Below, piece after piece: positions 1-17,809 of a stretch of 23,195 nt of DNA; positions within the stretch are counted from its first letter, which is position 1, and each line of letters starts with the position of its first letter. Position numbers and translations under genes: made by a program. This DNA is from a virus (Duplodnaviria > Heunggongvirae > Uroviricota > Caudoviricetes). Under the pieces are notes generated by a model. The model did not search any database, had not been told where the DNA came from, and saw only the letters and a program-made list of their open reading frames with translations. The stretch is from positions 1 through 23,195 of the IMG/VR virus record IMGVR_UViG_2713896904_000008; one strand, 5' to 3'.

Positions 1-98
1 AATTTCTATACTAAATACATATGTGAAAGATGTTGATGGTCAACGTCTACGGGGGAGAACATCCCCCGCTAACCTTTTTCTTATTTGAGGATTTACCT

Positions 99-200
99 AT
101 GGTTGAATTTTTGATTTATCTGGCTGTAGGATTAACTATCGTATATTCACTGGCACATATTGGCATTTCTACTTTGTGTAACGCTTTCAAGTATCATTAA
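99..200 (+). CDS. Small hydrophobic peptide (33 aa, MVEFLIYLAVGLTIVYSLAHIGISTLCNAFKYH), putative membrane peptide
   Basis: ATG at 99 preceded by GAGGA (88-92); single predicted TM-like hydrophobic stretch; below the 60-aa ORF-track cutoff, translated by hand. Confidence 0.3.
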   Translation: MVEFLIYLAVGLTIVYSLAHIGISTLCNAFKYH

Positions 201-252
201 TTAAATCGATGAATTGAACTATAGATGATGGTCGTTTTCAAAGAGGATTATC

Positions 253-402
253 TATGGATCTTTTTGTCTACTTTGCTACTCTGCTGTTTTTGACTATCGT
301 CGCTGGCATTAAATTGATTTTTATATCGCTGGTGGTGTTTTTCAAATTTCTAATCGGTACGCCTTACGGCTGGGTATGCTTCTTTTTGTTTATTCTTTTT
401 AG
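253..402 (+). CDS. Small hydrophobic peptide (49 aa, MDLFVYFATLLFLTIVAGIKLIFISLVVFFKFLIGTALRLGMLLFVYSF)
   Basis: ATG at 253 with AGAGGA 7 nt upstream; strongly hydrophobic; hand-translated, stop TAG at 400-402. Confidence 0.3.
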
Positions 403-583
403 TTGCTGTAAAAAGGATACTAAATAATAGTGTAATCTGCCTTTTCTCCTTATGGTTATTAACAGGGGATCTTCTTTGAGGATTCCCGATTAAAAGCCAT
501 AAAACACACTCCAGTACAGTGTTTTCATAGTCAGGATCTATACAACATAAAAACATAACAAGTATAGATTGAGTATTAATCCT

Positions 584-610
584 CCCGCCTCGAAAGAGGC
601 GGTTATTTTT
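584..610 (+). terminator. Rho-independent terminator (ccgcctc-gaaa-gaggcgg + TTATTTTT)
   Basis: 7-bp GC stem, GAAA loop, T-rich tail on + strand. Confidence 0.55.
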
Positions 611-687
611 CTGGCTTTAAAGAATAATGTAGCATTATGTTCATTATAACCTCATCTTTGTTGTGCAAACCTAACCTAAACTTACTA

Positions 688-711
688 GGGACTCTTCGGA
701 GTCCCTTTTTT
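688..711 (+). terminator. Rho-independent terminator with UUCG tetraloop (gggactc-ttcg-gagtccc + TTTTTT)
   Basis: Perfect 7-bp stem, TTCG loop, T6 run; abuts stop of the convergent minus-strand gene. Confidence 0.6.
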
Positions 712-1669
712 ATTGGCAGTAAGAAAAGTTAGTACCGTACATTTCATCATGAAGCATTGCAACATTGCGTTTCTGTTCTTCTTCCTCGTCTACCGCATCA
801 CTAGAAAAATGAGATTTGCCCTTAAAAGAACGAAGCAATTGCAGTGCAGCCATCGGATCACGCATCACATCGATTTTCACTTCTACTTCATCATTTGCGG
901 CCTCATCAGCCGCGTTTTCAACTACTGCCACCGGAGCAACTTCTTTAGTTTTCAGTTCTTCAATCTCAGCTTTCTGGGCTTCGATGATCTGGTCTTTTTC
1001 TTCCAGTGCAGCTTTCAGTTTTTCAATCTCAGCTTTCTGTGCTTCGATGATCTGGTCTTTTTCTTCCAGTGAAGTAAAGCGCGGAGAAACAGCATTCACC
1101 TGTGCTTCCAGTTCCAGGAATGCTTCACAAGATTCAATGCGTTCTTTCAATTCACCTTCATACGCAACCACTTCTACTACTTCTTTCTCAGTAGCGTGGC
1201 TGTTAAAGAATACAGCAAAGTAAGGATTACCGGATTTGGTGAAGTTCAGTTTAGCTTTTCCGGTAACTTCTTTACGACGACCAAAGGTAATGTTGCAATC
1301 AGCGGTATCCTGAAAATCCATGTTAGGAGCGGAAACAATAGCAGTATCACCAGCAATCACCAGGTGGAACAGTTCAGAAGAGTTCTTAACGGTGAAAGTA
1401 ACGATGTGGTCTACTGCAACGTCTTTAGCAGGTTTAACACGGTCGATTGCTTTACGAATGCCGTTAGGCAGTTTACCGTCAACACCAAAGCCAGCCGCGA
1501 TCAGTGCTTCACGATGTGCTTTAAAGCCAGCGAAAGCGGATTTCTGCTGCGCAAAGGAAACATGAGCAACAACTTTCGGCTGAATCTTCTTGTTTGCTTC
1601 GGTGCCAAATTTGATAACTGCTTTAGCGTTGGTTACTTCGTTAGTGAAAAAGTTAGCGGAAAATAACAT
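710..1669 (-). CDS. Hypothetical abundant early protein with central coiled-coil tandem repeat and acidic C-terminus (319 aa)
   Basis: Long ORF with AGGAG RBS 8 nt upstream of ATG; highly biased codon usage; 21-aa repeat LEEKDQIIEAQKAEIEKLKAA x2; plus-strand ORFs 713-1666 are its shadows. Confidence 0.75.
   Translation of the reverse strand: MLFSANFFTNEVTNAKAVIKFGTEANKKIQPKVVAHVSFAQQKSAFAGFKAHREALIAAGFGVDGKLPNGIRKAIDRVKPAKDVAVDHIVTFTVKNSSELFHLVIAGDTAIVSAPNMDFQDTADCNITFGRRKEVTGKAKLNFTKSGNPYFAVFFNSHATEKEVVEVVAYEGELKERIESCEAFLELEAQVNAVSPRFTSLEEKDQIIEAQKAEIEKLKAALEEKDQIIEAQKAEIEELKTKEVAPVAVVENAADEAANDEVEVKIDVMRDPMAALQLLRSFKGKSHFSSDAVDEEEEQKRNVAMLHDEMYGTNFSYCQ
949..1074. repeat. 63-bp perfect-to-near-perfect tandem duplication (x2) inside the 319-aa gene
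   Basis: ttcaatctcagctttctg(g/t)gcttcgatgatctggtctttttcttccagtg repeated with 63-nt offset. Confidence 0.7.
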
Positions 1670-1714
1670 TATAAATACTCCTGTGGAAAGTTAGTTTTAA
1701 TTGTTCATCGCAAA

Positions 1715-1750
1715 AGCCTCCTTGTTGCCGCAAGGGGGCTTTTTTATTTT
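1715..1750 (+). terminator. Intrinsic terminator hairpin, possibly bidirectional
   Basis: agcctccttg-ttgccg-caagggggct stem followed by TTTTTATTTT on + strand; on the minus strand the hairpin is followed by UUUUG. Confidence 0.6.
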
Positions 1751-1783
1751 TAAAGCCATCATATAATTCTCAGTCAAAGTTGA

Positions 1784-1966
1784 TTACCAAACGGTAGCTT
1801 CAATCTTCACTTTAATGTCATACTTCTTTAAAAGTTTGTGGAAGGTTGATTGATCAATACCTTCACCTTTAAACCATTCACCCATCACTACATCAGGTGT
1901 CAGTTCAAAATAACGCTTTGCCATTTCTAAAACGATTTCACGAGTGAACTTAACAGGTCGTGCCAT
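1784..1966 (-). CDS. Small putative HTH DNA-binding protein (60 aa), paralog of 5426..5656
   Basis: Strong RBS AGGAGGA; shares N-motif (R-P-x-K/R-F-T/D-R-E) and C-motif (GI-x-Q/S-x-F-H/Y-K-L/S-L-K/H-K-Y/V-D-I/L-K) with ORFs 5426..5656 and 5685..6287. Confidence 0.6.
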   Translation of the reverse strand: MARPVKFTREIVLEMAKRYFELTPDVVMGEWFKGEGIDQSTFHKLLKKYDIKVKIEATVW

Positions 1967-2031
1967 CTTAAATCCTCCTAAATCTGGATTAATGATTTCT
2001 TAAAAAAAGAGCGTTAACCGCTCACTATTAT

Positions 2032-2060
2032 TTATATGGGGATTGTTTTTAATTTTTCAA
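2032..2060 (-). promoter_or_regulatory. Sigma70-like promoter for the leftward 1966..1784 gene (minus-strand TTGAAA-17-ATATAA) with a 5-bp-arm inverted repeat (2009-2023) at the predicted start site
   Basis: Hexamers read on reverse complement: -35 at 2055-2060, -10 at 2032-2037, 17-nt spacer. Confidence 0.4.
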
Positions 2061-2474
2061 CCCCTCACATTTATCTCTTATATATGTATTTATAACAGAG
2101 ATATGTTAAAATGTTATTTGGATGTTATCAGGCGTGTTAAATGTGTTAAACCACAGCACGAATTGCTAAAGCGAAGAACACGAATTAACCAAATTGATGT
2201 TTATTCAATCAATTTAGAAAATTGCATAGCACTTTTTGCTAAAGCGGTGAGCATTAATTGAGCTATGAATTGTAAAGATTTGTTACAAGATTTTCTCTCA
2301 GATCCAAATCTTCACAGACATATAACAATTTAACAGAAGGATAACAAATGGAAGGAAAATCGGTAAATTTTCACTTTCAATACAAATATTATACCACATT
2401 TTTCTCGAATCGTCAATTATAGCACCGAACCGACATAGTGTCAAGAATGGACTTTCAAACCTACACTATGAAAA

Positions 2475-2640
2475 TTGCCCCTGAATTTTGCCCCCGAATA
2501 AAATCCCCAAGATTCTACTATCCCATTTTTGCCCCTGAAATTCCGGGAAACAGTGATTTTGCCCCTCATTTTTGCCCCTGAAATGCCAATAATTGCCCCT
2601 GAAAATCTAATTTTTGCCCCTGAAATTTGCCCCCGAAAAG
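2475..2640. repeat. Array of 8 direct repeats of TTTTGCCCC(T/C)GAAA (iteron-like)
   Basis: Copies at about 2475, 2486, 2526, 2557, 2569, 2592, 2611 and 2626; same motif forms the left arm of the terminator at 5122-5146. Confidence 0.7.
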
Positions 2641-2773
2641 GATTGGTGAGAAAAACTCTTTATAAAACATTAACTTAGTGATTGGTGAAAGCGGGGGATC
2701 GGGCGTGCATAGATATTATATAACACATTCGCTACGCTCATGTGTAAAACCAAAAATAACCAAAAAGATATTA

Positions 2774-2793
2774 GGAGGGCTTTAGCCCGACTG
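2774..2793. repeat. 20-bp direct repeat ggagggctttagcccgactg, copy 1
   Basis: Exact match to 3164-3183. Confidence 0.7.
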
Positions 2794-3163
2794 CGCGAAG
2801 CGCCAACCAATTGCTTCTAGTAACAACTAATTTAAACTAGATGATACTAGATGGTCTTAGAAGGAATTAACTAGTTTGCTCGCTCGCTTCGCTCACTCTC
2901 AAACGTCTGCGACGCCACTGCGTGGCATCGAGAATCACTTTCGAAAGGATTTTCTTGAAAGGGATTTTAAACTAGTTACTAACTGATTCTAGTAAACGAA
3001 CGAAGTGAGTAACAATCACTTTCTAGAAAGGTATTGGTATCCCTTCGGGATTGCAACCTTCGGTTGCTAAATTGCTTCCTGATTATTATTTCTCCAAAAG
3101 AAAGATTCTTATATTCTAAAGATACTTCTTCGTTTTGGTGATGATTTAATCAAAATCTATGAA

Positions 3164-3183
3164 GGAGGGCTTTAGCCCGACTG
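3164..3183. repeat. 20-bp direct repeat ggagggctttagcccgactg, copy 2
   Basis: Exact match to 2774-2793; the two copies bracket a ~370-bp CTAG-rich, hairpin-rich ORF-free segment. Confidence 0.7.
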
Positions 3184-3271
3184 AATCCAATCACTTCCAA
3201 ATAGATAAAAAATTCTCGTTATAAATACTAGTGTAATTTGTTTGATTCACTTTCTTTTAGAGGATACCACT

Positions 3272-3724
3272 ATGATCAATACTAAAACTCCTTTCGTACT
3301 TCTGGGTCTGAACCATGATGATAATCTGGATATGATGCATGTTTTCGCTAATCGTGGTTATAACATCATTCGTCATTCCGAAGACTCCAATTTCTCAACT
3401 GCTTTCTATGCTCTTAAACGTAATGGTCGCCCTACGGTGATCGTAGACTGCTTTACTGATGAAGGTCGTGAACAATACAACAACATTCCGGCAATTATTG
3501 TTCGTGATGACCTGCCGTTTGATGTTCGTGAATATGACGTTGATTTAGGCTCTTACTATGGGATCGCCGATCTTGACCAGATTATGGCTGATTACGGTAA
3601 ACAACCCGCTCAGGAAGCCCAAGAACACGATGAAGAGGATGAGGAAAACGAAGACTACGCACCAATCTGTTTCTCTTCTCAGAATGGCTTCTACGGTTAC
3701 GATGAAGGCTTAGATATGCTGTAA
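3272..3724 (+). CDS. Hypothetical acidic protein (150 aa from ATG 3272; ORF track starts at TTG 3242)
   Basis: AGAGGA RBS 7 nt before ATG 3272; biased codon usage; C-terminal Asp/Glu-rich tail (QEAQEHDEEDEENEDY). Confidence 0.7.
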   Translation: MINTKTPFVLLGLNHDDNLDMMHVFANRGYNIIRHSEDSNFSTAFYALKRNGRPTVIVDCFTDEGREQYNNIPAIIVRDDLPFDVREYDVDLGSYYGIADLDQIMADYGKQPAQEAQEHDEEDEENEDYAPICFSSQNGFYGYDEGLDML

Positions 3725-3759
3725 GTTAGGTCAACCCTTTGGCGTCTTGTCAAGGGGTG

Positions 3760-3788
3760 TTGACAAAATTTTCTGACTTTTTTATGAT
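3760..3788 (+). promoter_or_regulatory. Strong sigma70-like promoter TTGACA-17-TATGAT overlapping a 7-bp inverted repeat (ttgtcaa 3747-3753 / ttgacaa 3760-3766)
   Basis: -35 at 3760-3765, -10 at 3783-3788, exact 17-nt spacer; a second TTGACA at 3797-3802 with a weaker -10. Confidence 0.6.
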
Positions 3789-3844
3789 TATCGCACTTGA
3801 CAATTTTGAACCTATTTGACCTAGATTTGTAAAGAGGATGTAAC

Positions 3845-4177
3845 ATGAAAGAATTTACCATCACTAAATCCCTGTATGACTGGACTGTTAAAATCTCCGG
3901 CAAAACCGTTTCTGTAAGCCCTAGCCATGTAGAAAATGATTGGGGCGTATCCCGTGAAACTATCTCCCGTAGTATGCATGTTCCGTTTGATCTGATGTCC
4001 TTAACTGGTATTCATGCAATGCTGGAAGTTCGCGAACAATTCGAAGCTGGTAATCACAATGCGACTCCAGTTAGCAATCACCTTCTTACTAATGAAGAAC
4101 GTGAAATCATCGAAAACTGGCGTTATGAATATGCGATTCCTTATTATGAAGAAGATCAGGTAGAAATCGATTGGTAA
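3845..4177 (+). CDS. Hypothetical protein (110 aa)
   Basis: AGAGGA RBS; biased codon usage; immediately downstream of the strong promoter. Confidence 0.7.
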   Translation: MKEFTITKSLYDWTVKISGKTVSVSPSHVENDWGVSRETISRSMHVPFDLMSLTGIHAMLEVREQFEAGNHNATPVSNHLLTNEEREIIENWRYEYAIPYYEEDQVEIDW

Positions 4178-4279
4178 TAAATTTCTATTATAAATAAAAT
4201 TGTTCCGCGCGCCGTTGGCGTGTGGACAGTTAAAAACAGGAGAATCAATCACTAAACCGTTTAAGGGGAATTTTTTACT

Positions 4280-5113
4280 ATGAATACTGTTACTACTATG
4301 AATACTGCTGTTAAAACTGCTTCCGTGTCTCTGGTTGTTGATAACACCAAACCGCTGACCATGTCTTCTCGTCAGATCGCTGAATTTACCGGAAAAGAAC
4401 ACCACAAAGTTAAAGTTGATATAACTAAGATGTTGAATGCTCTAGGTTATGAAGATCACGCGAAGTTTCGCGTCATCTATTTTGACCAATACGGACGCGA
4501 ACAAAACGAATATCAACTAGACGAAGAAATGACTCTGACTCTTGTCACTGGTTACGATGTTAAGCGTCGAATGGTTGTTATTCAGGAATGGAAACGACTG
4601 AAAGAAGAAAATGAAAAACTGCGTTCTCAGCAAGTCAACCCATACGCAAACATGACTAAGCTCGATTGGATTCGTGAGGCAATGGAATTGGAAGCCGCAA
4701 ACGAACAACTGATTCAAGAAAAGAAACAACTGGTTGAATTGCATGTTCGTAAAGCTATCGACACACACAGTCTTAGCCGCTTATTAGGCGAAAAACGAGG
4801 CTCTACGAAGGTACAAATTATTCTGAAAGGTTTATGTGCTGCTGGTGTTCTTGAGCGTCGTCTGGATGCTTCTGGTAAGCCTAAAGGCTATGATCTGCTT
4901 CCTCCTGGCTATATGTTCGCTCGTATGTCGGCACACGGTCAGATCGAGTTCACTGCTGATGCTATTCCGCATCTCGTAAAACTCGGATTGCTTGAAGAAG
5001 AAAAGGCCGCAACTTTGAAATTGCCACAGCCGAATAACTCACGAGCAATCGTCAATAATACTGCTTTGCTGATTCGTCAGAATGCTGGATCACTGGAACA
5101 CTTCGGACTGTGA
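4280..5113 (+). CDS. Rha-family phage regulatory protein / antirepressor-like (277 aa)
   Basis: N-terminal segment LTMSSRQIAEFTGKEHHKVKVDITKML resembles the Phage_pRha domain; C-terminal region resembles antirepressor (Ant/KilAC-like) domains; assignment by motif recall only. Confidence 0.65.
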   Translation: MNTVTTMNTAVKTASVSLVVDNTKPLTMSSRQIAEFTGKEHHKVKVDITKMLNALGYEDHAKFRVIYFDQYGREQNEYQLDEEMTLTLVTGYDVKRRMVVIQEWKRLKEENEKLRSQQVNPYANMTKLDWIREAMELEAANEQLIQEKKQLVELHVRKAIDTHSLSRLLGEKRGSTKVQIILKGLCAAGVLERRLDASGKPKGYDLLPPGYMFARMSAHGQIEFTADAIPHLVKLGLLEEEKAATLKLPQPNNSRAIVNNTALLIRQNAGSLEHFGL

Positions 5114-5121
5114 TAATTTTT

Positions 5122-5146
5122 GCCCCTGAATTTCAGGGGCTTTTTG
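5122..5146 (+). terminator. Rho-independent terminator (gcccctg-aattt-caggggc + TTTTT)
   Basis: Perfect stem and T-run immediately after the Rha-like gene stop. Confidence 0.7.
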
Positions 5147-5187
5147 TATCTGGAGTTTTTCGCCGAAAACCTGCAATACAGAATTTC

Positions 5188-5384
5188 GAAAGAATCAATA
5201 GGTTAGAGATGAGCGCAGTTTTGCGCCGATTGATTCAAGTTTGAATTTCTCGAAAGAATCAACCACTTAGATAGATACGCTGAACTTTAAGCACATCCCC
5301 TCAGTTTTGAGGGCATCTATAGATCAGTCCAAATCTGGACTCATCGGAAGAATCAATGACTTAGAGATGTGCTCAGTTTTGAGC
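5188..5384. repeat. Three copies of a ~40-bp unit (G)GAAAGAATCAA-N4-TTAGAGATG-hairpin, each hairpin with a conserved GTTT loop and covarying stem
   Basis: Hairpins gcgca-gttt-tgcgc (5213-5226), ccctca-gttt-tgaggg (5298-5313), gctca-gttt-tgagc (5371-5384); stems differ but stay complementary. Confidence 0.6.
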
Positions 5385-5390
5385 GGATAT

Positions 5391-5418
5391 AAAAAAGGCC
5401 AACCCCGAAGGATTGGCC
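5391..5418 (-). terminator. Minus-strand rho-independent terminator with UUCG loop for the leftward operon
   Basis: On the reverse complement: ggccaatcc-ttcg-gggttggcc followed by TTTTTT. Confidence 0.6.
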
Positions 5419-5425
5419 TAGAGAA

Positions 5426-5656
5426 TCAAATTCCTGTTGCTTCTACCATTTCACCATCAACCTGAACAAAGAATTTCAAATCAACTTTATGGAGTGATTT
5501 GTAGAATTGAGCGATTGAAATACCGTGTTCACTCAATACTTGCTCTTTTTCGGCTTTACCTTTCGGCGCTTGATAGTACGCTTTTACAATCGCTGCCAGT
5601 TGTTCACGATCAAAACGGCAAGGACGACCGCGAGTAGCTTTAGTAGTCATAGTCAT
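5426..5656 (-). CDS. Small putative HTH DNA-binding protein (76 aa; likely start at the internal ATG 5650)
   Basis: RBS GGAG upstream; N-motif TRGRPCRFDREQLAAIVKAYYQ and C-motif GISIAQFYKSLHKVDLK shared with 1784..1966 and 5685..6287. Confidence 0.6.
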   Translation of the reverse strand: MTMTTKATRGRPCRFDREQLAAIVKAYYQAPKGKAEKEQVLSEHGISIAQFYKSLHKVDLKFFVQVDGEMVEATGI

Positions 5657-5684
5657 TTCTCCAAATTAAAGTGAATGTTCACCT

Positions 5685-6287
5685 TTATTTAGAGGACTTA
5701 CATTTTATCGGAAAAAGTTCTCCATCGTCAATACTCATAAAGAACTCTGCCTTAATCCCGTACTTCTTCAACCGTGAATAGTATGTACCCCGACTTATAT
5801 CAACCTTGCGAAGCACTTCAAAGAACCCTTTAGGATCGTTGTAATAGTGGCTATAACGCACGTTAGCGAGTTCAACGAATAGTTCCCTTGTATCACCATA
5901 GCCTTTCTTGAAAGCCTCGTTACGATAGCGTGTAATTGCGTGATTCAATCTCTTCTGTTTCAACACTTCCCTGATCGGTGTCCACTGCAACCGATAGATA
6001 GGACCGTCATCCACTCGATAATAACGCTTGATATCAAAATCAAACCATTCACGGACTCTCTGGAACTCTGTCTGTGATGTTCGGTGCTTCTTAAAGAAGT
6101 TGTGAATATCTGTATATCCCTGATCGCGATACAACTCTATTAAAATTTGCTTCGCTTCCTCGCGACTAAAGCCGGATGTTGTGTAATCAGTCTTCTTGTG
6201 ATGGTGCTTAACTGGCAAACGATATTCATGATCGGTACAAGACAAGGCTAATTCTAATTCATCTCTTTCTTGCTGATTAATTAGCAT
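5685..6287 (-). CDS. Hypothetical protein (200 aa) carrying both paralog motifs separated by a ~100-aa insert; putative DNA-binding
   Basis: AGGGGG RBS; [16 protein letters not shown] and [17 protein letters not shown] match the motifs of the two small paralogs; divergent from the terminase gene. Confidence 0.65.
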
Positions 6288-6301
6288 ACAACCCCCTTTG
6301 A

Positions 6302-6329
6302 TTAATACCCGTATTTATCAAAATATCAA
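6302..6329 (-). promoter_or_regulatory. Candidate minus-strand promoter (TTGATA-16-TATTAA) for the leftward operon, in the divergent region with the terminase gene
   Basis: Read on reverse complement: -35 at 6324-6329, -10 at 6302-6307. Confidence 0.35.
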
Positions 6330-6372
6330 CAATTTAATAAATACCTTCATATTTCGTAATGAGGGTAATTAC

Positions 6373-8280
6373 ATGAAACTGATTTCGAACAAGGCCAAAT
6401 TAAAAAAGATTCTTAAAAATGCCGCAAAATATATCACTCCACCGCCTAAACTCCTTCCGTCTGAATGGTGCGAAGCGAATATGGTGCTGGTAGATGGTCC
6501 TCAAGCTGGGGATAAAGTTAAATTGTTGTCATTCCAAAAAGGCATGATTGATGCACCTTTCCTTGAGAACAAGAAAAAGTATGTTCTGATGACCAGTGCG
6601 CAGATCGGAAAGACTACCATCCTGAACGGTATCCTGTTTAACCAGATGGCTAACGATCCATGCAATATGATTATCGGACAATCAACCGCTAAAGAAATGT
6701 CTCAATATCTCGCGGGTAAGATCCGACCGTCTATCGAAGCATGTGATGCATTAAAAGACGTGGTTACAGACAAGAATGATCGCAATGCGGTTAACAACAA
6801 TAACCAGCTACAGCTAAAAACGAATCACTTCCTGTACATGGTATCGCTTACCAGTCCATCAACCCTACGTGGTAAGACCGCAAAGGTTGGATTGCTTGAC
6901 GAAATCGATGCTGCTACAGCCTCAGAAGAAGGTGATCCGGTGGCGCTGGCTGCTAACCGTTTAACTACCTTTGGCGATGAAGGTCGATTAGTCGTATCCA
7001 GTACCCCGACCAGTAAGCTCGGAAGCATTAACCAACAATGGTTATCAAGCGATATGCGTATGTTTTTTGTTCCGTGTCCTCATTGCGGTAGACACCAGGT
7101 GATCGAGTGGGAAAACGTTCAATTTGAATGGCGTAACATCGATGGTAAGAATTTACCCGATCCTGATACCGCTCGTTATATTTGCCCCCATTGTAAGAAC
7201 GCATGGACAGAAGGGGAACGAATCAGGGCAGTAGCGCAAGGCGAGTGGAGAGCAACCCGTGAAAGTGAAGTAGCAGGATTCTGGATTAGCCGTCTGTATT
7301 CACCTTTCAGCACGATCCGCGCTTGTGTGGTTGATTTTAGTCATGCGTGGCAATCCTTTGATTTACAATCATTTTATAACACCGTGTTAGGCAAGGTATA
7401 CGATGATCAGGACACGGCAGTAGAAGCAAATGAACTGGAAAAACTCAAAACAGATGTTTCTATCGAGAATATCCCTGATGACGTGATTTTCTTGTGCTCA
7501 GGAATTGACCAGCAATTGGATCGCGCAGAATCTACCATCTTAGGTGTAGCGAAAGATAAGGTTTACATTCTGGATCACCGTAGCTTTTACGATCATAACT
7601 GTGAACGATACGAATCACCTGTATGGGATCGTCTGGTTAACTTCAAGAAAACCAAATTCTATAACGTTAATGGTGAACGTGTGCCAATGCTCGCCAGCTT
7701 CCTCGATACATCAAACGGTCGATTCACTCAAGCCGGATACCGTATTTGTGGTAAGTGGAAGAACCTACACGCTATTAAAGGTAGTTCATCCGGTAATGCT
7801 CCAGTGATTCCGGTTAAACCTACCCGCACAGGTGGTCATGAATTGCTTATGCTGGGCGTTAACGTTGGTAAATCCGCTGTTCGTGAAATGCTGGTTAGAA
7901 ACCTGAAAGATAATCCTCATATTGGCTTAGAAATATCAGAAACCGTTCCTGATGATTATCTCGATCAGCTTTTGAGTGAATCCATCAAGCGTACTACTAC
8001 TGGTGTTCGTTGGGTGAAAAATCCAGGTAGTACCCGAAACGAGGCTCTCGACTGTCTGGTTTATAGCTATGCTGCTTCTCGCTACGTTCTTTCAAAAATG
8101 TCATGGGATAAACTCATTGCAATGAAAGACAGCTTAAACCGTGTTGTCGAAGAATCCGTAGAAGCTCATAAATCGCAATCTGACGAGCAAATCGAAGAAA
8201 CTAAGCCAAACCCACGACCACAGCGTCAAAACATCGCCAGACGTCCAAATAGAGGCCGTAGCTGGGTAACATCGTTCTAA
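6373..8280 (+). CDS. Terminase large subunit (lambda GpA-like), 635 aa from ATG 6373
   Basis: GAGGG RBS 7 nt before ATG 6373 (ORF track starts at 6298); Walker A-like [11 protein letters not shown]; size and position immediately upstream of portal. Confidence 0.85.
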
Positions 8281-14233: not shown

Positions 14234-17200
14234 ATGCAGTCGATCCAATTTAAACGCACACAGACGGCTGGTAAAAAGCCAACGCCGGAACAATTACAGG
14301 TCGGTGAAATCGCTATTCAGATGGCAGACCATGTAATTTATACCAAAGATAAAAATAACGCAGTAGTTCAAGTAAGTGTTTCTCCTGAAAGTCATAATGC
14401 TTTAAACACAAAAGTAGACAATAACAAGAAAACTACTGATGCGACTATCGCGGCAAATAAAACCGAAGCTGCTAACGCTCTGGCTACCGCTAAATCTGAA
14501 CTGAATAACACGATTAACACGAAAGATACAGCGACCAATAAGCGCATTGATGCTACTAACACCACTGTTAGTAACTTAACCCAGACAGTTACGGCAAATA
14601 AAACCGACGCTGACACCAAGATCAATAACCTTACGGGGACAGTTGCATCTAACAAATCAGCTATTGAAACTACAGTAGCTAATAACAAACGAGATGCGGA
14701 CAATAAAATCGCAGCTTTAACCACGACGGTTAATGACAATAACACCGCGATTAACAACAAAGTTAATACCACTAACACCAACGTTAGCAACTTAACTAAA
14801 ACTGTTACTGCAAATAAAACCGATGCAGATAACAAAATTTCTAGCTTAACTAGCACGGTTGCAGCTAACAAAACAGCGATTGAAAAGGTCGTTTCCGACA
14901 ACAAGAAAGATGCTGATACTAAAATCAGTAACCTTACAGGGACGGTGAATAGCAACCATACCGCTATTAACGCAAAGGTTGACAAAAACAAAACTGATAC
15001 TGATTCAGCGATCGCAGCCGCTAACCGTCGAATTGATTCTATTGAAGGTAGTAACGATGCTCTTTACATCAAGAAGAATACCAACACTTATCATCACGGC
15101 TATTTGTTAACCAAAACAGCTAACTATCTGGAAGACCAGACATCACGAGATCTTAACTACTTTGGTGCTTTCCGAACTAATGGACAAGATGGACTCATGG
15201 ATCTAACTCTTAATGTTCCTCATTCTGCCGGTAAAGCGCACGGTCGCGGATTTACTTTCCGTTATGCGTCTGGTGGATCTCGTGTTGAAACCTATGGTTT
15301 TGATAGAGAAGGACAGAAGAACTTTAGCTATAAGATGTATCACGAAGGTGATAAGCCGACTCCTGGCGAAATCGGTGCATACACTAAAGCAGAAGTTGAC
15401 AAGATGTTTGTTAAAAACGTCACTATGTCTGTTCCTAATTCTAGCGAAAACGTATCTGCATATTTCAAATTGGCAACCGCAACAATTCCACAAAACGGGC
15501 GTAGTGTGTTTTTCCGTATTCATGGTGGTAATGGTTACAACGTTACGGCATATGACCAAGTTGATGTAGTAGAAATTCTTCTCCGTAGTGGTAACGATAG
15601 ACCTAAAGGACTTAACGTAATTGCATACCGTAGAAATACAAACAAAGATTTTGAGGTATTTGCTGTCAATACTTCCGGTGATAACTATGATATCTACGTG
15701 AAATATCAGCGTTATACCGATAACGTTATTGTCGAATATGGGAAATCTGTTTATGTAAGTTTGACGGTTTATGATACGCCGGAAGCCACGTTAATTAAAC
15801 CTTCCGTTGGTGTTATCGGTGGTCGCAACGTAACTCTTTTTAACACAGAAAATAAACGTGGTGTGTTGAGTTTTGACGACAATACACAAAACAGCTATGA
15901 CATTGTTCATCTAAGCAATGATAGAGGTACTGGACGGAAATATATTCGTAAATTCCGTAGCAACTATAACGAAATGATCTGGCATGAGACTGTTCAAGGT
16001 AATACATATCGATTGGCAACCGGAACGACTGATGCATCGGAAGTTTTTAGAATTACTAGTCGCACCATGTTTACTGGTAAAGGTGTATTTGATGCCGGAC
16101 AAAACGTTCTTAGATTAGAGCGTCCTAGCAACCAATCAAACTATATTGAATGGCAAGACCGCCGAAATGGTGCTGATGCTCGTCAAGGTTGGATCGGTTT
16201 TGGTGGTGCTGAAACAAATAACTTTCAATGGTATAGCGATCAAGGAAAAAACTCATTCCTGTTGGATGCTAATGGTCAATGCTCTATTATTACTGGTGCA
16301 ACAAAAATTGTATATACCAACGGTGAATATTGCTCTGGCAACTCTAACGCATATCGTATGGCATTTGGTAACTATGGCGCATTCTGGCGTAATGACGGCA
16401 CTAAAGTTTATCTGTTGTCTACTGCTGAAAACGATAAGTTGGGCGGCTGGAATACTTATCGACCATTCATTTATGATTTAACTTCCGGTAACGTTCAATT
16501 AGGCGGTGATGGTAACGAAGATGCATTAACGTTAGAACGTGCTTCTCGTGCCGCTCGCTTTAGTAATGACGTTTACATTAAGAAAGGGCATTTGACTTTC
16601 GACGCTGGACGATTAGGATCTCGTGATTTCTTTAAAATCAACCATTGGGGTGATAGCAATAACGCCCGTGATAACATTTTGCAGTTTGAAGACAGTCAGG
16701 GCGCACATTTTACCACTGAACGTGCTATGGGTACTGGTAACATAACAGCACGTTTTAAAGGCTTTGTTCGTGTTGAGTCTGGTGAGATTGCATTTGATGC
16801 TAATCGGGGGTCGCAGTCTCAATTCACCTTACACACATGGGGTAACGAGCAACGCAAACAGGTTTTTGAATGTAAGGATGCTACAAGTTATCACTGGTAT
16901 ACTGAACGTACTCAGGGTGGCACTGGACCTATTCTGTTCGCTATGGCGGGTAGTCTAAACGTTGCTAGCAATATCACAACAACTGGTGCTGATATTACGT
17001 TTAAACGCGCTGGCAATAAGCACATCTGGTTTAGAGATCCAGACGGTTTAGAGTTAGGCTTGATGTACTGCGATGATGCTGGTGCTATTCGCTTCCGTGG
17101 TCAGAAACAAGCCCAGACGTGGAAACTTGCGGATAAGATGATTCATCTTGAATCTGGTAGCGTCGGCGGGTCTGATAAAGGTTTGATTCGTGGTAACGTT

Positions 17201-17809
17201 TCTGGTGGTAGTTGGGCTAGCTGGCGTGACCGTGCTTCCGGTTTACAAGTTGATTGTCCTCAATCAACCGATTCCGCTCATAACATCTGGAAAGCGACTC
17301 ATTGGGGAAAATATCATATTGCGGCAATGGGTGTGCATGTTCCTGGCGGCACTATAGGTAATGCTATGGCACGTCTAAACGTAAATGACGCCAACTTTGA
17401 CTTTAACGCTGCGGGTGATTTTAGCGCAGGTCGTAACGGTAGCTTTAACGATGTTTATATTCGTTCTGACCGTCGTCTGAAAGTTAATCTGGAAGAATTA
17501 AAAGATGATGCTTTAGAGAAAGTAAACTCCCTGAAAGTCTACTCATACGATAAAGTTAAGTCTCTTAAAGATCGTAGTGTGATTAAACGCGAAGTCGGTA
17601 TTATTGCTCAGGATCTTGAAGAAGTATTGCCGGAAGCAGTAGGTATTCAATCCACCGAAGATCCAGAAAATCCAGAAGCAATTAAGACTATTTCTAACTC
17701 CGCTGTTAATGCCTTGATTATTAAAGCTATTCAGGAAATGGACGCCAAATATAAAGCCCAGATCGAAGCATTACAGAAAGAAATTGCCGAACTCAAAGCA
17801 ACTAAATAA
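14234..17809 (+). CDS. Long tail fibre protein with C-terminal intramolecular chaperone / self-cleaving domain (1191 aa)
   Basis: N-terminal KRTQTAGKKPTPEQLQVGEIAI anchor-like motif; 72-aa tandem repeats; C-terminus SDRRLK ... GIIAQDLEEVLPEAV resembles the chaperone domain of phage T5 L-shaped fibre and endosialidases (Ser-Lys dyad motif). Confidence 0.85.
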   Translation: MQSIQFKRTQTAGKKPTPEQLQVGEIAIQMADHVIYTKDKNNAVVQVSVSPESHNALNTKVDNNKKTTDATIAANKTEAANALATAKSELNNTINTKDTATNKRIDATNTTVSNLTQTVTANKTDADTKINNLTGTVASNKSAIETTVANNKRDADNKIAALTTTVNDNNTAINNKVNTTNTNVSNLTKTVTANKTDADNKISSLTSTVAANKTAIEKVVSDNKKDADTKISNLTGTVNSNHTAINAKVDKNKTDTDSAIAAANRRIDSIEGSNDALYIKKNTNTYHHGYLLTKTANYLEDQTSRDLNYFGAFRTNGQDGLMDLTLNVPHSAGKAHGRGFTFRYASGGSRVETYGFDREGQKNFSYKMYHEGDKPTPGEIGAYTKAEVDKMFVKNVTMSVPNSSENVSAYFKLATATIPQNGRSVFFRIHGGNGYNVTAYDQVDVVEILLRSGNDRPKGLNVIAYRRNTNKDFEVFAVNTSGDNYDIYVKYQRYTDNVIVEYGKSVYVSLTVYDTPEATLIKPSVGVIGGRNVTLFNTENKRGVLSFDDNTQNSYDIVHLSNDRGTGRKYIRKFRSNYNEMIWHETVQGNTYRLATGTTDASEVFRITSRTMFTGKGVFDAGQNVLRLERPSNQSNYIEWQDRRNGADARQGWIGFGGAETNNFQWYSDQGKNSFLLDANGQCSIITGATKIVYTNGEYCSGNSNAYRMAFGNYGAFWRNDGTKVYLLSTAENDKLGGWNTYRPFIYDLTSGNVQLGGDGNEDALTLERASRAARFSNDVYIKKGHLTFDAGRLGSRDFFKINHWGDSNNARDNILQFEDSQGAHFTTERAMGTGNITARFKGFVRVESGEIAFDANRGSQSQFTLHTWGNEQRKQVFECKDATSYHWYTERTQGGTGPILFAMAGSLNVASNITTTGADITFKRAGNKHIWFRDPDGLELGLMYCDDAGAIRFRGQKQAQTWKLADKMIHLESGSVGGSDKGLIRGNVSGGSWASWRDRASGLQVDCPQSTDSAHNIWKATHWGKYHIAAMGVHVPGGTIGNAMARLNVNDANFDFNAAGDFSAGRNGSFNDVYIRSDRRLKVNLEELKDDALEKVNSLKVYSYDKVKSLKDRSVIKREVGIIAQDLEEVLPEAVGIQSTEDPENPEAIKTISNSAVNALIIKAIQEMDAKYKAQIEALQKEIAELKATK
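14558..14990. repeat. Two tandem ~216-bp repeats (72 aa each, with ~14-aa sub-periodicity TVTANKTDADxKIxxLTxTV) in the fibre shaft
   Basis: NTTVSNLTQTVTANKTDADTKI at residue 109 and NTNVSNLTKTVTANKTDADNKI at residue 181. Confidence 0.7.

What the first reader, a model, noticed from the sequence alone, without database searches (positions are those of the whole stretch)
5426..6287. Family of three paralogous HTH-like proteins on the leftward strand (including 1784..1966)
Proteins of 60, 76 and 200 aa share an N-terminal motif (R-x-x-K/R-F-T/D/S-R-E-x-x-x-x-I-x-x-x-Y) and a C-terminal HTH-like motif (GI-S/D-x-x-T/Q-F/Y-H/Y-K/S-L/R-L-K/H-K-Y/V-D/G-I/L-K). The 200-aa member looks like a small paralog with a ~100-aa insertion. 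Triplicated small DNA-binding proteins in an early region, one divergent from the terminase gene, may be regulators or a divergently encoded small-terminase-like function.
Basis: seen in the sequence. Interest (0 to 1): 0.45.

Follow-up and report, generated by a model that had tools for sequence, protein, structure and literature searches.

The report
Three paralogous prophage helix-turn-helix proteins
Three small genes in the control region of an E. coli prophage encode a previously unnamed family of helix-turn-helix proteins, one of them an internal duplication, that most likely act as the phage's own gene regulators and not as a DNA-packaging subunit.

Summary
The ORFs at 1784-1966 (A, 60 aa), 5426-5650 (B, 74 aa) and 5685-6287 (C, 200 aa), all on the minus strand, are real genes under purifying selection, and they are homologous.

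One correction: C is not a small paralog with a 100-aa insertion. It is a tandem duplication of the whole domain, so there are four domain copies in three proteins. Each copy is predicted as three helices plus a beta-hairpin. A and B also carry an N-terminal R-(G)-R-P arm.

The family reaches no Pfam, PHROG, NCBIfam, PADLOC or PDB threshold. An exhaustive profile search links it only remotely to Hin/resolvase and IS3-OrfA-type HTH domains (HTH_7, HTH_23, HTH_Tnp_1).

The genes sit at fixed positions in about 35-kb Enterobacterales prophages:
- C then B, divergent from the gpA-type large terminase.
- A, heading the operon of a 319-aa coiled-coil protein.

The small-terminase idea is not supported. 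A Nu1-like small terminase (phrog_57) lies just left of the window. The iteron array at 2475-2637 co-varies with the 319-aa protein, not with A. The repeats at 5186-5388 are accessory.

Best reading: lineage-specific DNA-binding transcription regulators with unknown targets. This is a new member of a known kind, of modest interest.

The parts
1784..1966 (-). Gene A, 60 aa. One domain copy: an MARPVKF-TRE arm, three helices, and a short C-terminal strand with the hairpin tip missing. It is the first gene of the leftward operon that continues into the 319-aa coiled-coil protein (710-1669).
   Evidence: AGGAGG 7 nt upstream of the ATG; fixed position in 31 loci; dN/dS 0.20.
5426..5650 (-). Gene B, 74 aa. 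The ORF reaches 5656, but homologs and the SD spacing favour the ATG at 5650. It has an RGRP arm, helices at 15-27, 32-42 and 46-55, and a beta-hairpin at 61-70.
   Evidence: AF2 pLDDT 77; dN/dS 0.065.
5685..6287 (-). Gene C, 200 aa. It has a conserved N-terminal helix (residues 3-16, low confidence) followed by two tandem copies of the domain. It is transcribed divergently from the large terminase gene (start 6373).
   Evidence: AF2 pLDDT 75 overall, 83-91 within the domains; dN/dS 0.18.
5988..6200 (-). C domain copy 1 (residues 30-100): helices at 42-56, 61-67 and 72-82, strands at 86-92 and 97-99.
   Evidence: hhalign 95-96% to the A and B families; HMM domain i-E 2e-22; this sequence was itself in the model.
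5703..5942 (-). C domain copy 2 (residues 116-195): helices at 134-147, 152-161 and 166-175, a strand at 180-186 and a short return strand.
5396..5419 (-). Intrinsic-terminator-like hairpin plus T-run directly after B. It probably ends the C-B transcript.
   Evidence: B-allele-specific 12-mers extend into it.
5702..5731 (-). Promoter-like site (TTGACG-18-TAAAAT) inside the 3' end of C. It could give B its own transcript.
   Evidence: consensus match only. This fits B and C alleles assorting independently.
6288..6372 (.). 85-bp divergent control region between C and TerL. It holds a 24-bp inverted repeat, TTGATTAATAcccgTATTTATCAA (6298-6321), over the putative -10/spacer of the C promoter. The core TAATACCCGTATTTAT is conserved in relatives. 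It is a candidate operator and is untested.
   Evidence: unique in the window; 0 of 100 shuffles; the left arm is not conserved in most loci, and there is no covariation with the B allele.
2009..2037 (-). Promoter-like motif ATATAAATAATAGTGA (2022-2037), 56 nt upstream of A, followed by the hairpin GAGCGgttaaCGCTC plus T7 (2009-2023).

Best explanation
A, B and C are sequence-specific DNA-binding proteins of a lineage-specific helix-turn-helix family. They most likely serve as transcription regulators of this temperate siphovirus.

Each domain is a three-helix bundle. Helices 2 and 3 form the HTH (G-I-S/D-x-x-T/Q-F/Y-x-K-L-x-K-Y), and a C-terminal beta-hairpin follows. In A and B an N-terminal R-(G)-R-P arm precedes the domain. 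This resembles the minor-groove arm of Hin-type domains; that comparison rests on my own knowledge.

By inference, A and B bind as single domains or as dimers. C carries two copies in one chain and would contact two adjacent or asymmetric half-sites, like a covalent pseudo-dimer, as paired, Tc3 and CENP-B type bipartite domains do.

A heads, and probably controls, the leftward early operon that encodes the iteron-matched 319-aa protein. C and B are transcribed back to back with the late (terminase and structural) operon. They probably act on the shared 85-bp control region or on other promoters of the 6-kb control module.

Shown here: homology, the duplication, the fold class, purifying selection, fixed synteny, and the absence of other recognisable regulators except Rha.

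Inferred: DNA binding, the targets, and the direction of regulation.
For: - Homology and duplication.
- Remote family link: an exhaustive HMM search of 1.84 billion representatives finds, outside the family, only proteins built of HTH_23/HTH_28/HTH_Tnp_1/HTH_7 repeats. Sub-threshold hits recur to HTH_Tnp_1 (9 of 35 members) and HTH_7 (5 of 35).
- Charge: all three are basic, pI 9.0-9.3.
- Context: in all 31 related loci with enough flank, exactly three members occupy the same positions. The roughly 6-kb module between TerS and TerL, and the rest of a 35-kb prophage, contain no CI/Cro/Q-type or other recognisable regulator except a Rha-family protein.
- Mosaicism: B, C and A alleles assort independently. 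L001 has C 95.5% and TerL 98.9% but B 69%. L006 has B 96% but C 46%. On general knowledge of temperate-phage mosaicism, this pattern is typical of specificity-determining regulators.
- Selection: purifying.
Against: - No member reaches the curated threshold of any HTH family.
- No DNA site was found that co-varies with the A or B allele.
- C lacks the RGRP arm.
- DNA binding is not demonstrated. Three-helix bundles can also serve protein-protein contacts.
Confidence: 0.55

Rival explanations
1. C, alone or with B, is a DNA-recognition subunit of the packaging machine: a small-terminase-like or cos-binding accessory factor, encoded divergently from TerL.
For: - C lies immediately next to the gpA-type TerL in every relative.
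- Its size (200 aa) and HTH content resemble small terminases.
- C divergence roughly tracks TerL divergence.
- Some small-terminase Pfam families share this HTH type (one search lists Sf6_terminase and Phage_terminase among the HTH hits of the repeat proteins).
Against: - A full-length Nu1-like small terminase (181-186 aa, phrog_57 E 3e-16 to 3e-19, plus a weak Phage_Nu1 hit in L001) is present on the TerL strand 5-6.5 kb upstream in three lineages, preceded in L001 by a GC-rich cos-like stretch.
- A, B and C match no terminase profile.
- The AF2 model shows no oligomerisation core.
- C is on the opposite strand to the late operon.
- B alleles do not co-vary with C or TerL.
Confidence: 0.07
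2. A (and perhaps its paralogs) is the iteron-binding protein of a replication origin or partition site, as the first reader suggested by proposing binding assays against the array at 2475-2640.
For: - A lies about 500 bp from an array of eight TTGCCCCTGAA iterons.
- It is co-oriented with a conserved 319-aa partner.
- Related phages also carry 11-bp-period iterons at this place.
Against: - Across 33 loci, iteron type matches the allele of the 319-aa protein: N1 (plus one divergent N7 allele) with TTCAGGGGC, N4 with TAGTGTAGG, and N2, N3 and N6 each with its own iteron.
- The A1 allele occurs with two iteron types, and L030 has an A identical to the window's but different iterons.
- The specificity determinant is therefore the 319-aa protein, even though A lies between it and the iterons.
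Confidence: 0.07
3. One or more of the three are recombination directionality factors or architectural proteins for the large serine recombinase at the other prophage end.
For: - Small basic proteins of 60-75 aa are common directionality factors (general knowledge).
- In the circular phage genome the recombinase and attP adjoin this control region.
Against: - Known directionality factors of serine integrases act by binding the integrase and are unrelated to this family (general knowledge).
- The three genes are 2-7 kb from the attachment site.
- Three paralogs plus a fused one are not expected for this role.
- There is no similarity to Xis/AlpA/HTH_17 profiles.
Confidence: 0.06
4. The domains are protein-binding modules, not DNA binders. 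They might act as anti-repressors, or as modulators of host RNA polymerase or host defence.
For: - No significant match to any DNA-binding family.
- No co-varying DNA site was found.
- C lacks the basic arm.
- They are neighbours of a Rha/anti-repressor-like gene.
Against: - The conserved HTH signature (G-I-S-x-x-T-F-Y-K-L-x-K-Y) and the RGRP arm are typical of DNA readers.
- All three have a basic pI.
- The only remote relatives are canonical HTH repeats.
- There are no hits to defence models.
Confidence: 0.15

Closest known systems
Hin/resolvase-type and IS3 OrfA-type tri-helical HTH domains (Pfam HTH_7 PF02796, HTH_23 PF13384, HTH_28 PF13518, HTH_Tnp_1 PF01527)
   Same: - Three-helix domain with the HTH in helices 2-3.
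- A basic G-R-P arm before helix 1 in A and B.
- A recognition-helix pattern of the type S-x-x-T-hydrophobic-Y-K/R.
- The family profile retrieves proteins made of these domains, and sub-threshold hits recur.
   Different: - No member passes a gathering score (best E 0.017).
- An extra C-terminal beta-hairpin is present.
- The proteins are free-standing or tandem, with no recombinase or transposase catalytic domain.
- They are confined to one prophage lineage of Enterobacterales.
Bipartite two-HTH DNA-binding domains (Tc3 transposase 1u78, CENP-B 1hlv, Myb R2R3)
Lambda Nu1-type small terminase
   Different: There is no profile match. The strand is opposite. No assembly domain is predicted. A real Nu1-like gene exists elsewhere in the same prophages.
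Mu Mor/C paralogous activators
   Same: These are paralogous small HTH proteins of one phage, placed at the heads of successive transcription units. The analogy is one of logic only.

Membership tests
HTH clan, Hin/resolvase and IS3-OrfA type (HTH_7, HTH_23, HTH_28, HTH_Tnp_1) | Match to a family HMM at its curated gathering score | tested here: not met
   The best hit is HTH_Tnp_1 at E 0.017-0.13 (13 bits against a cut-off of 24.1). HTH_7 reaches E 0.035.
HTH clan, Hin/resolvase and IS3-OrfA type (HTH_7, HTH_23, HTH_28, HTH_Tnp_1) | Three-helix bundle with helix 2-turn-helix 3 | tested here: met
   AF2 models of C (two copies) and B. Structural neighbours are tri-helical DNA binders, but the scores are weak.
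HTH clan, Hin/resolvase and IS3-OrfA type (HTH_7, HTH_23, HTH_28, HTH_Tnp_1) | Profile-level relatedness to bona fide members | tested here: met
   hmmsearch of 1.84 billion proteins gives hits at E 2e-12 to 9e-4 to proteins that Pfam assigns to HTH_23/28/Tnp_1/7 repeats. Their scores are summed over several repeats, so each single match is modest.
HTH clan, Hin/resolvase and IS3-OrfA type (HTH_7, HTH_23, HTH_28, HTH_Tnp_1) | Sequence-specific DNA binding | not testable with these tools
   Needs EMSA, DAP-seq or ChIP-seq.
Small terminase (Nu1/TerS) | Match to a TerS profile | tested here: not met
   A, B and C have no terminase hit in Pfam or PHROGs. The 186-aa gene left of the window has one.
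Small terminase (Nu1/TerS) | Co-oriented with TerL and upstream of it in the packaging operon | tested here: not met
   C and B are on the opposite strand in all relatives.
Small terminase (Nu1/TerS) | Oligomerisation core after the DNA-binding domain | tested here: inconclusive
   The monomer AF2 model shows only two HTH-hairpin units and a low-confidence N-terminal helix. No multimer prediction was possible.
Cro/CI-type (HTH_3) or Xis/AlpA-type (HTH_17, Phage_AlpA) phage regulators | Profile match | tested here: not met
   No hits at E up to 1 for any of 63 family members.
Mor/C late activators (PF08765) | Profile or fold match | tested here: not met

The most novel reading that the evidence does not exclude
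The three paralogs, including a covalently duplicated one, together form the whole lysis-lysogeny and late-gene control circuit of a compact temperate siphovirus lineage. This lineage has no CI, Cro or Q analogues, and its control and replication module is wedged between the small and large terminase genes. On this reading, the module is a self-contained regulatory cascade built by duplication of one orphan HTH domain.
Probability: 0.2. Interest if true: 0.5.

Novelty: new member of a known kind. Interest (0 to 1): 0.3.

Why it matters
These prophages occur in about 1% of complete E. coli genomes (63 of 5426) and also in Salmonella, Proteus and Edwardsiella. Almost none of their control region is annotated.

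Recognising A, B and C as one HTH family, with C as a fused double domain, gives the first candidates for the regulators of this phage group. It also provides a small natural example of a regulator family diversifying by duplication and fusion inside a single genome.

The analysis also removes a tempting mis-annotation of C as the small terminase. And it assigns the iterons to the 319-aa protein, not to A.

Tried and rejected
1. Pfam, PHROGs, NCBIfam, PADLOC and PDB sequence searches with single proteins and with family profiles found nothing at threshold. Two weak hits to NF051483 (PA0613 family) on the same profile region were not pursued.
3. The small-terminase idea was rejected after the Nu1-like gene was found left of the window. 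The 164-aa gene after TerL is a head-tail joining protein. The closest phage TerL (DCP80, 43% identity) has unrelated small upstream genes.
4. Tests for co-variation of DNA sites with protein alleles:
 - Iterons against A: negative. The iterons follow the 319-aa protein.
 - B-allele-specific 12-mers map only inside B and its terminator.
 - The hairpin at 2009-2023 varies independently of A.
 - Variants of the C/TerL inverted repeat are independent of B.
5. The repeats at 5186-5388 as a conserved binding array were rejected, because they occur in only 5 of 41 loci.
6. Rfam found nothing credible in 1-6500.
7. A literature search for a ycdX prophage found nothing relevant.
8. A homolog search for the 319-aa protein returned only hypothetical proteins.

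Full report
**Where the window comes from**

The first 8.3 kb match chromosomal prophages in 63 of 5426 complete E. coli genomes at 80-99% identity. They match nothing in the plasmid set. In the phage set only a tail-fibre segment matches.

In E. coli UTME-8 the element is about 35 kb and is inserted in ycdX. A large serine recombinase and lysis genes lie at one end. The window's region lies at the other end.

The window carries these features, in order:
- a leftward operon of A (1784-1966) and a 319-aa coiled-coil protein (710-1669);
- about 1.3 kb without long ORFs, containing an iteron array;
- a rightward operon of a 150/160-aa gene, a 110-aa gene and a Rha-family protein;
- the leftward pair C (5685-6287) and B (5426-5650);
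- the rightward late operon, starting with a gpA-type large terminase (6373-8280), then a head-tail joining protein, the portal and a protease-capsid fusion.

**Check of the observation**

The three ORFs are real, and each has a strong ribosome-binding site. B most likely starts at 5650 and is 74 aa, as in nearly all database homologs.

Pairwise local alignments are far above shuffled controls. A-B gives z=9.7, A-C(113-200) gives z=7.0 and B-C(113-200) gives z=8.0. None of 2000 shuffles reached the observed scores (BLASTP).

I collected homologs for each protein: 43 for C, and 45 for A plus B. All are 'hypothetical', and all come from E. coli, Shigella, Salmonella, Proteus, Edwardsiella or metagenomes.

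Family profile-profile comparison (hhalign) gives:

| Pair | Probability |
|---|---|
| A ~ B | 97% |
| A ~ C(30-112) | 96% |
| A ~ C(113-200) | 95% |
| B ~ C(30-112) | 95.5% |
| B ~ C(113-200) | 94% |
| C(30-112) ~ C(113-200) | 77% (E 2e-5) |

C therefore contains two complete copies of the domain. The '100-aa insertion' is really a tandem duplication. The duplication is present in all 28 aligned C homologs, down to 41% identity.

An HMM of the domain finds exactly these three genes, and no others, in the whole window and in a complete related prophage. Median dN/dS is 0.18 for C, 0.065 for B and 0.20 for A.

**What the domain is**

AlphaFold2 with the family alignments gives the following.
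- For C: mean pLDDT 75, and 83-91 inside the domains. It predicts two units of three helices plus a beta-hairpin, and a low-confidence N-terminal helix.
- For B: pLDDT 77, one such unit.

The similarity searches gave little.
- Neither sequence profiles against the PDB nor Pfam, PHROGs, NCBIfam or PADLOC give a hit at threshold.
- An exhaustive HMMER search of 1.84 billion representative proteins found only 23 hits at E up to 0.001. Beyond the family itself, these are proteins with 4-7 matched stretches. Pfam assigns them to arrays of HTH_23, HTH_28, HTH_Tnp_1 and HTH_7.
- Sub-threshold hits of individual members recur to HTH_Tnp_1 (9 of 35) and HTH_7 (5 of 35).

The domain is therefore a remote, unnamed offshoot of the Hin/resolvase and IS3-OrfA type HTH, with an added hairpin. 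A and B keep an R-(G)-R-P arm ahead of helix 1. From my own knowledge, this is the minor-groove arm motif of Hin-type domains. Both copies in C have lost it. All three proteins are basic, with pI 9.0-9.3.

**Context and conservation**

In metagenomic and Salmonella relatives the order is the same: TerL <-> C, B; then Rha or a 68-aa gene; then a 150-163-aa gene; then 1.3-1.4 kb non-coding; then an A-like gene; then a 319-330-aa coiled-coil protein. In these relatives C is only 41-46% identical.

Thirty-three IMG/VR loci confirm this. Every locus with enough flank has exactly three family genes at these positions.

At the A position, some Salmonella-type phages carry a much more divergent member, MGRPVKITEE...FGITRRTFSRLAHRY.

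Alleles assort independently (identity to the window):

| Locus | C | TerL | B | A |
|---|---|---|---|---|
| L001 | 95.5% | 98.9% | 69% | 83% |
| L006 | 46% | 56% | 96% | no tblastn hit |

B and C are thus separate modules. They are unlikely to need an allele-specific partnership.

**The small-terminase idea**

The gene just left of the window in UTME-8 (L001:19431-19991) is 186 aa and lies on the same strand as TerL. It matches phrog_57 'terminase small subunit' over its full length (E 2.8e-16) and weakly matches Pfam Phage_Nu1 (E 0.017).

The equivalent 181-183-aa genes in the two distant lineages also match phrog_57, at E 3e-19 and 2.5e-15. A GC-rich, cos-like stretch precedes the gene in L001.

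The phage therefore has an ordinary Nu1-like subunit, oddly separated from TerL by the roughly 6.3-kb control module. C is not needed as a small terminase. It also has no terminase profile match, sits on the wrong strand, and shows no predicted assembly core.

**The proposed DNA targets**

*Iterons.* The array at 2475-2637 consists of eight TTGCCCCTGAA repeats with at most 2 mismatches. A ninth copy sits in the Rha terminator at 5120. Relatives have arrays with an 11-bp period at the same place but with different sequences.

Across 33 loci the iteron type follows the allele of the 319-aa protein:
- N1 (plus one divergent N7 allele) with TTCAGGGGC;
- N4 with TAGTGTAGG;
- N2, N3 and N6 each with its own iteron.

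It does not follow A. Allele A1 occurs with two iteron types, and L030 has an A identical to the window's together with the other iteron and N4. A lies between the iterons and the 319-aa gene, so this coupling is functional and not mere linkage. The 319-aa protein is the likely iteron reader, and A is not.

*Repeats at 5186-5388.* They lie between two convergent terminators. They occur in only 5 of 41 loci, so they cannot be the obligate target of B or C.

*Hairpin at 2009-2023.* It is conserved as a hairpin plus T-run. Its stems vary by compensatory changes, and its loop is either GAAA or GTTAA. This variation is unrelated to the A allele. It behaves as a terminator or a 5' stem-loop, not as an A operator.

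*C/TerL control region.* The 85-bp region holds a 24-bp inverted repeat at 6298-6321. It is unique in the window and absent from shuffles. Its core is conserved even where C and TerL are about 50% identical. Its left arm is not conserved in most loci, and its variants do not follow the B allele. It remains only a candidate operator.

*B-allele-specific 12-mers.* They lie only inside B and its terminator.

**Conclusion**

The finding is real, and the paralogy is significant. The most likely function is sequence-specific DNA binding in transcription control (confidence about 0.55).
- A would act at the head of the operon for the iteron-matched protein.
- C and B would act next to the late operon.
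- C would act as a fused double domain.

The rivals each have low support: packaging factor, iteron binder, directionality factor, and protein adaptor.

The family is new as a named family, but it belongs to the best-known class of DNA-binding domains. Novelty is 'new member of a known kind' and interest is modest.

Noticed in passing
Just left of window position 1 (L001:19431-19991; L004:7737-8282; L006:14320-14871) relative to TerL at window 6373-8280: A Nu1-like small terminase (phrog_57, E 3e-16 to 3e-19) and the gpA-type large terminase are separated by the whole ~6.3-kb regulatory and replication-like module, part of which is on the opposite strand. A GC-rich cos-like stretch lies upstream of the small subunit. 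Split terminase genes of this kind are unusual for lambda-like packaging modules.
   Followed up: partly
window 2475-2637 (iterons) and 710-1669 (319-aa protein, minus strand): Eight TTGCCCCTGAA iterons. Relatives have different iterons with an 11-bp period at the same site. Iteron type co-varies with the allele of the 319-aa coiled-coil protein across 33 loci, even though gene A lies between them. The protein has no known domain and may be a new iteron-binding initiator or partition protein.
   Followed up: partly
window 5186-5388: Three ~45-nt repeats (TCGRAAGAATCAA...TTAGA...) lie between two convergent terminators. Each ends in a small hairpin with the same loop (AGTTTT) but compensatory stem changes: GCGC/GCGC, CCCTC/GAGGG and GCTC/GAGC. 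They are present in only 5 of 41 related loci, so they form an accessory element of unknown nature.
   Followed up: partly
window 2009-2444, minus strand: A perfect sigma-70 consensus promoter (TTGACA-17-TATAAT with TG; 2444-2416) points towards the hairpin plus T7 at 2023-2009, about 400 nt away. No convincing ORF lies between them, so this may be an untranslated RNA. There is no credible Rfam match.
   Followed up: no
window 2773-2793 and 3163-3183: An exact 21-nt direct repeat, AGGAGGGCTTTAGCCCGACTG, contains a GGGC/GCCC hairpin. The two copies are 390 nt apart inside the long non-coding region.
   Followed up: no
window 418-433, 1669-1684, 2022-2037 (minus strand), 3219-3234, 4188-4203: A recurrent motif, TTATAAATAMTAKTGT, resembles a -10 region with conserved flanks. 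Copies lie 40-80 nt upstream of A, the 150-aa gene and the Rha gene (5 matches against 1.6 expected). A related TAATAAATAC lies upstream of TerL.
   Followed up: partly
window 3747-3788: The inverted repeat TTGTCAAggggtgTTGACAA overlaps the -35 of a near-consensus promoter (TTGACA-17-TATGAT) upstream of the 110-aa gene. It is operator-like.
   Followed up: no
window 15113-17740 (inside the 1191-aa ORF 14234-17809): Part of the tail-fibre gene of this siphovirus-like prophage is 78-84% identical in DNA to the distal long-tail-fibre gene (gp37) of RB49/JSE/Phi1-like T-even phages. This suggests recent exchange of a host-range determinant.
   Followed up: no
window 947-1072: A 63-nt tandem duplication (94% identical) lies inside the coiled-coil segment of the 319-aa gene. 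Homologs vary in length from 297 to 361 aa.
   Followed up: no
window 4280-5650 compared with L001 and L006: Rha (59% and 58%) and B (69% and 96%) are replaced independently of their 93-99% identical neighbours. This marks a mosaic hot spot of the kind seen at phage immunity regions.
   Followed up: partly
P0090-P0095, P0101 (representative library; unknown organisms): Proteins of 258-981 aa built of 4-7 or more tandem HTH_23/HTH_Tnp_1/HTH_7 units turned up as the only remote relatives of the family. These are unusual architectures and were not examined further.
   Followed up: no
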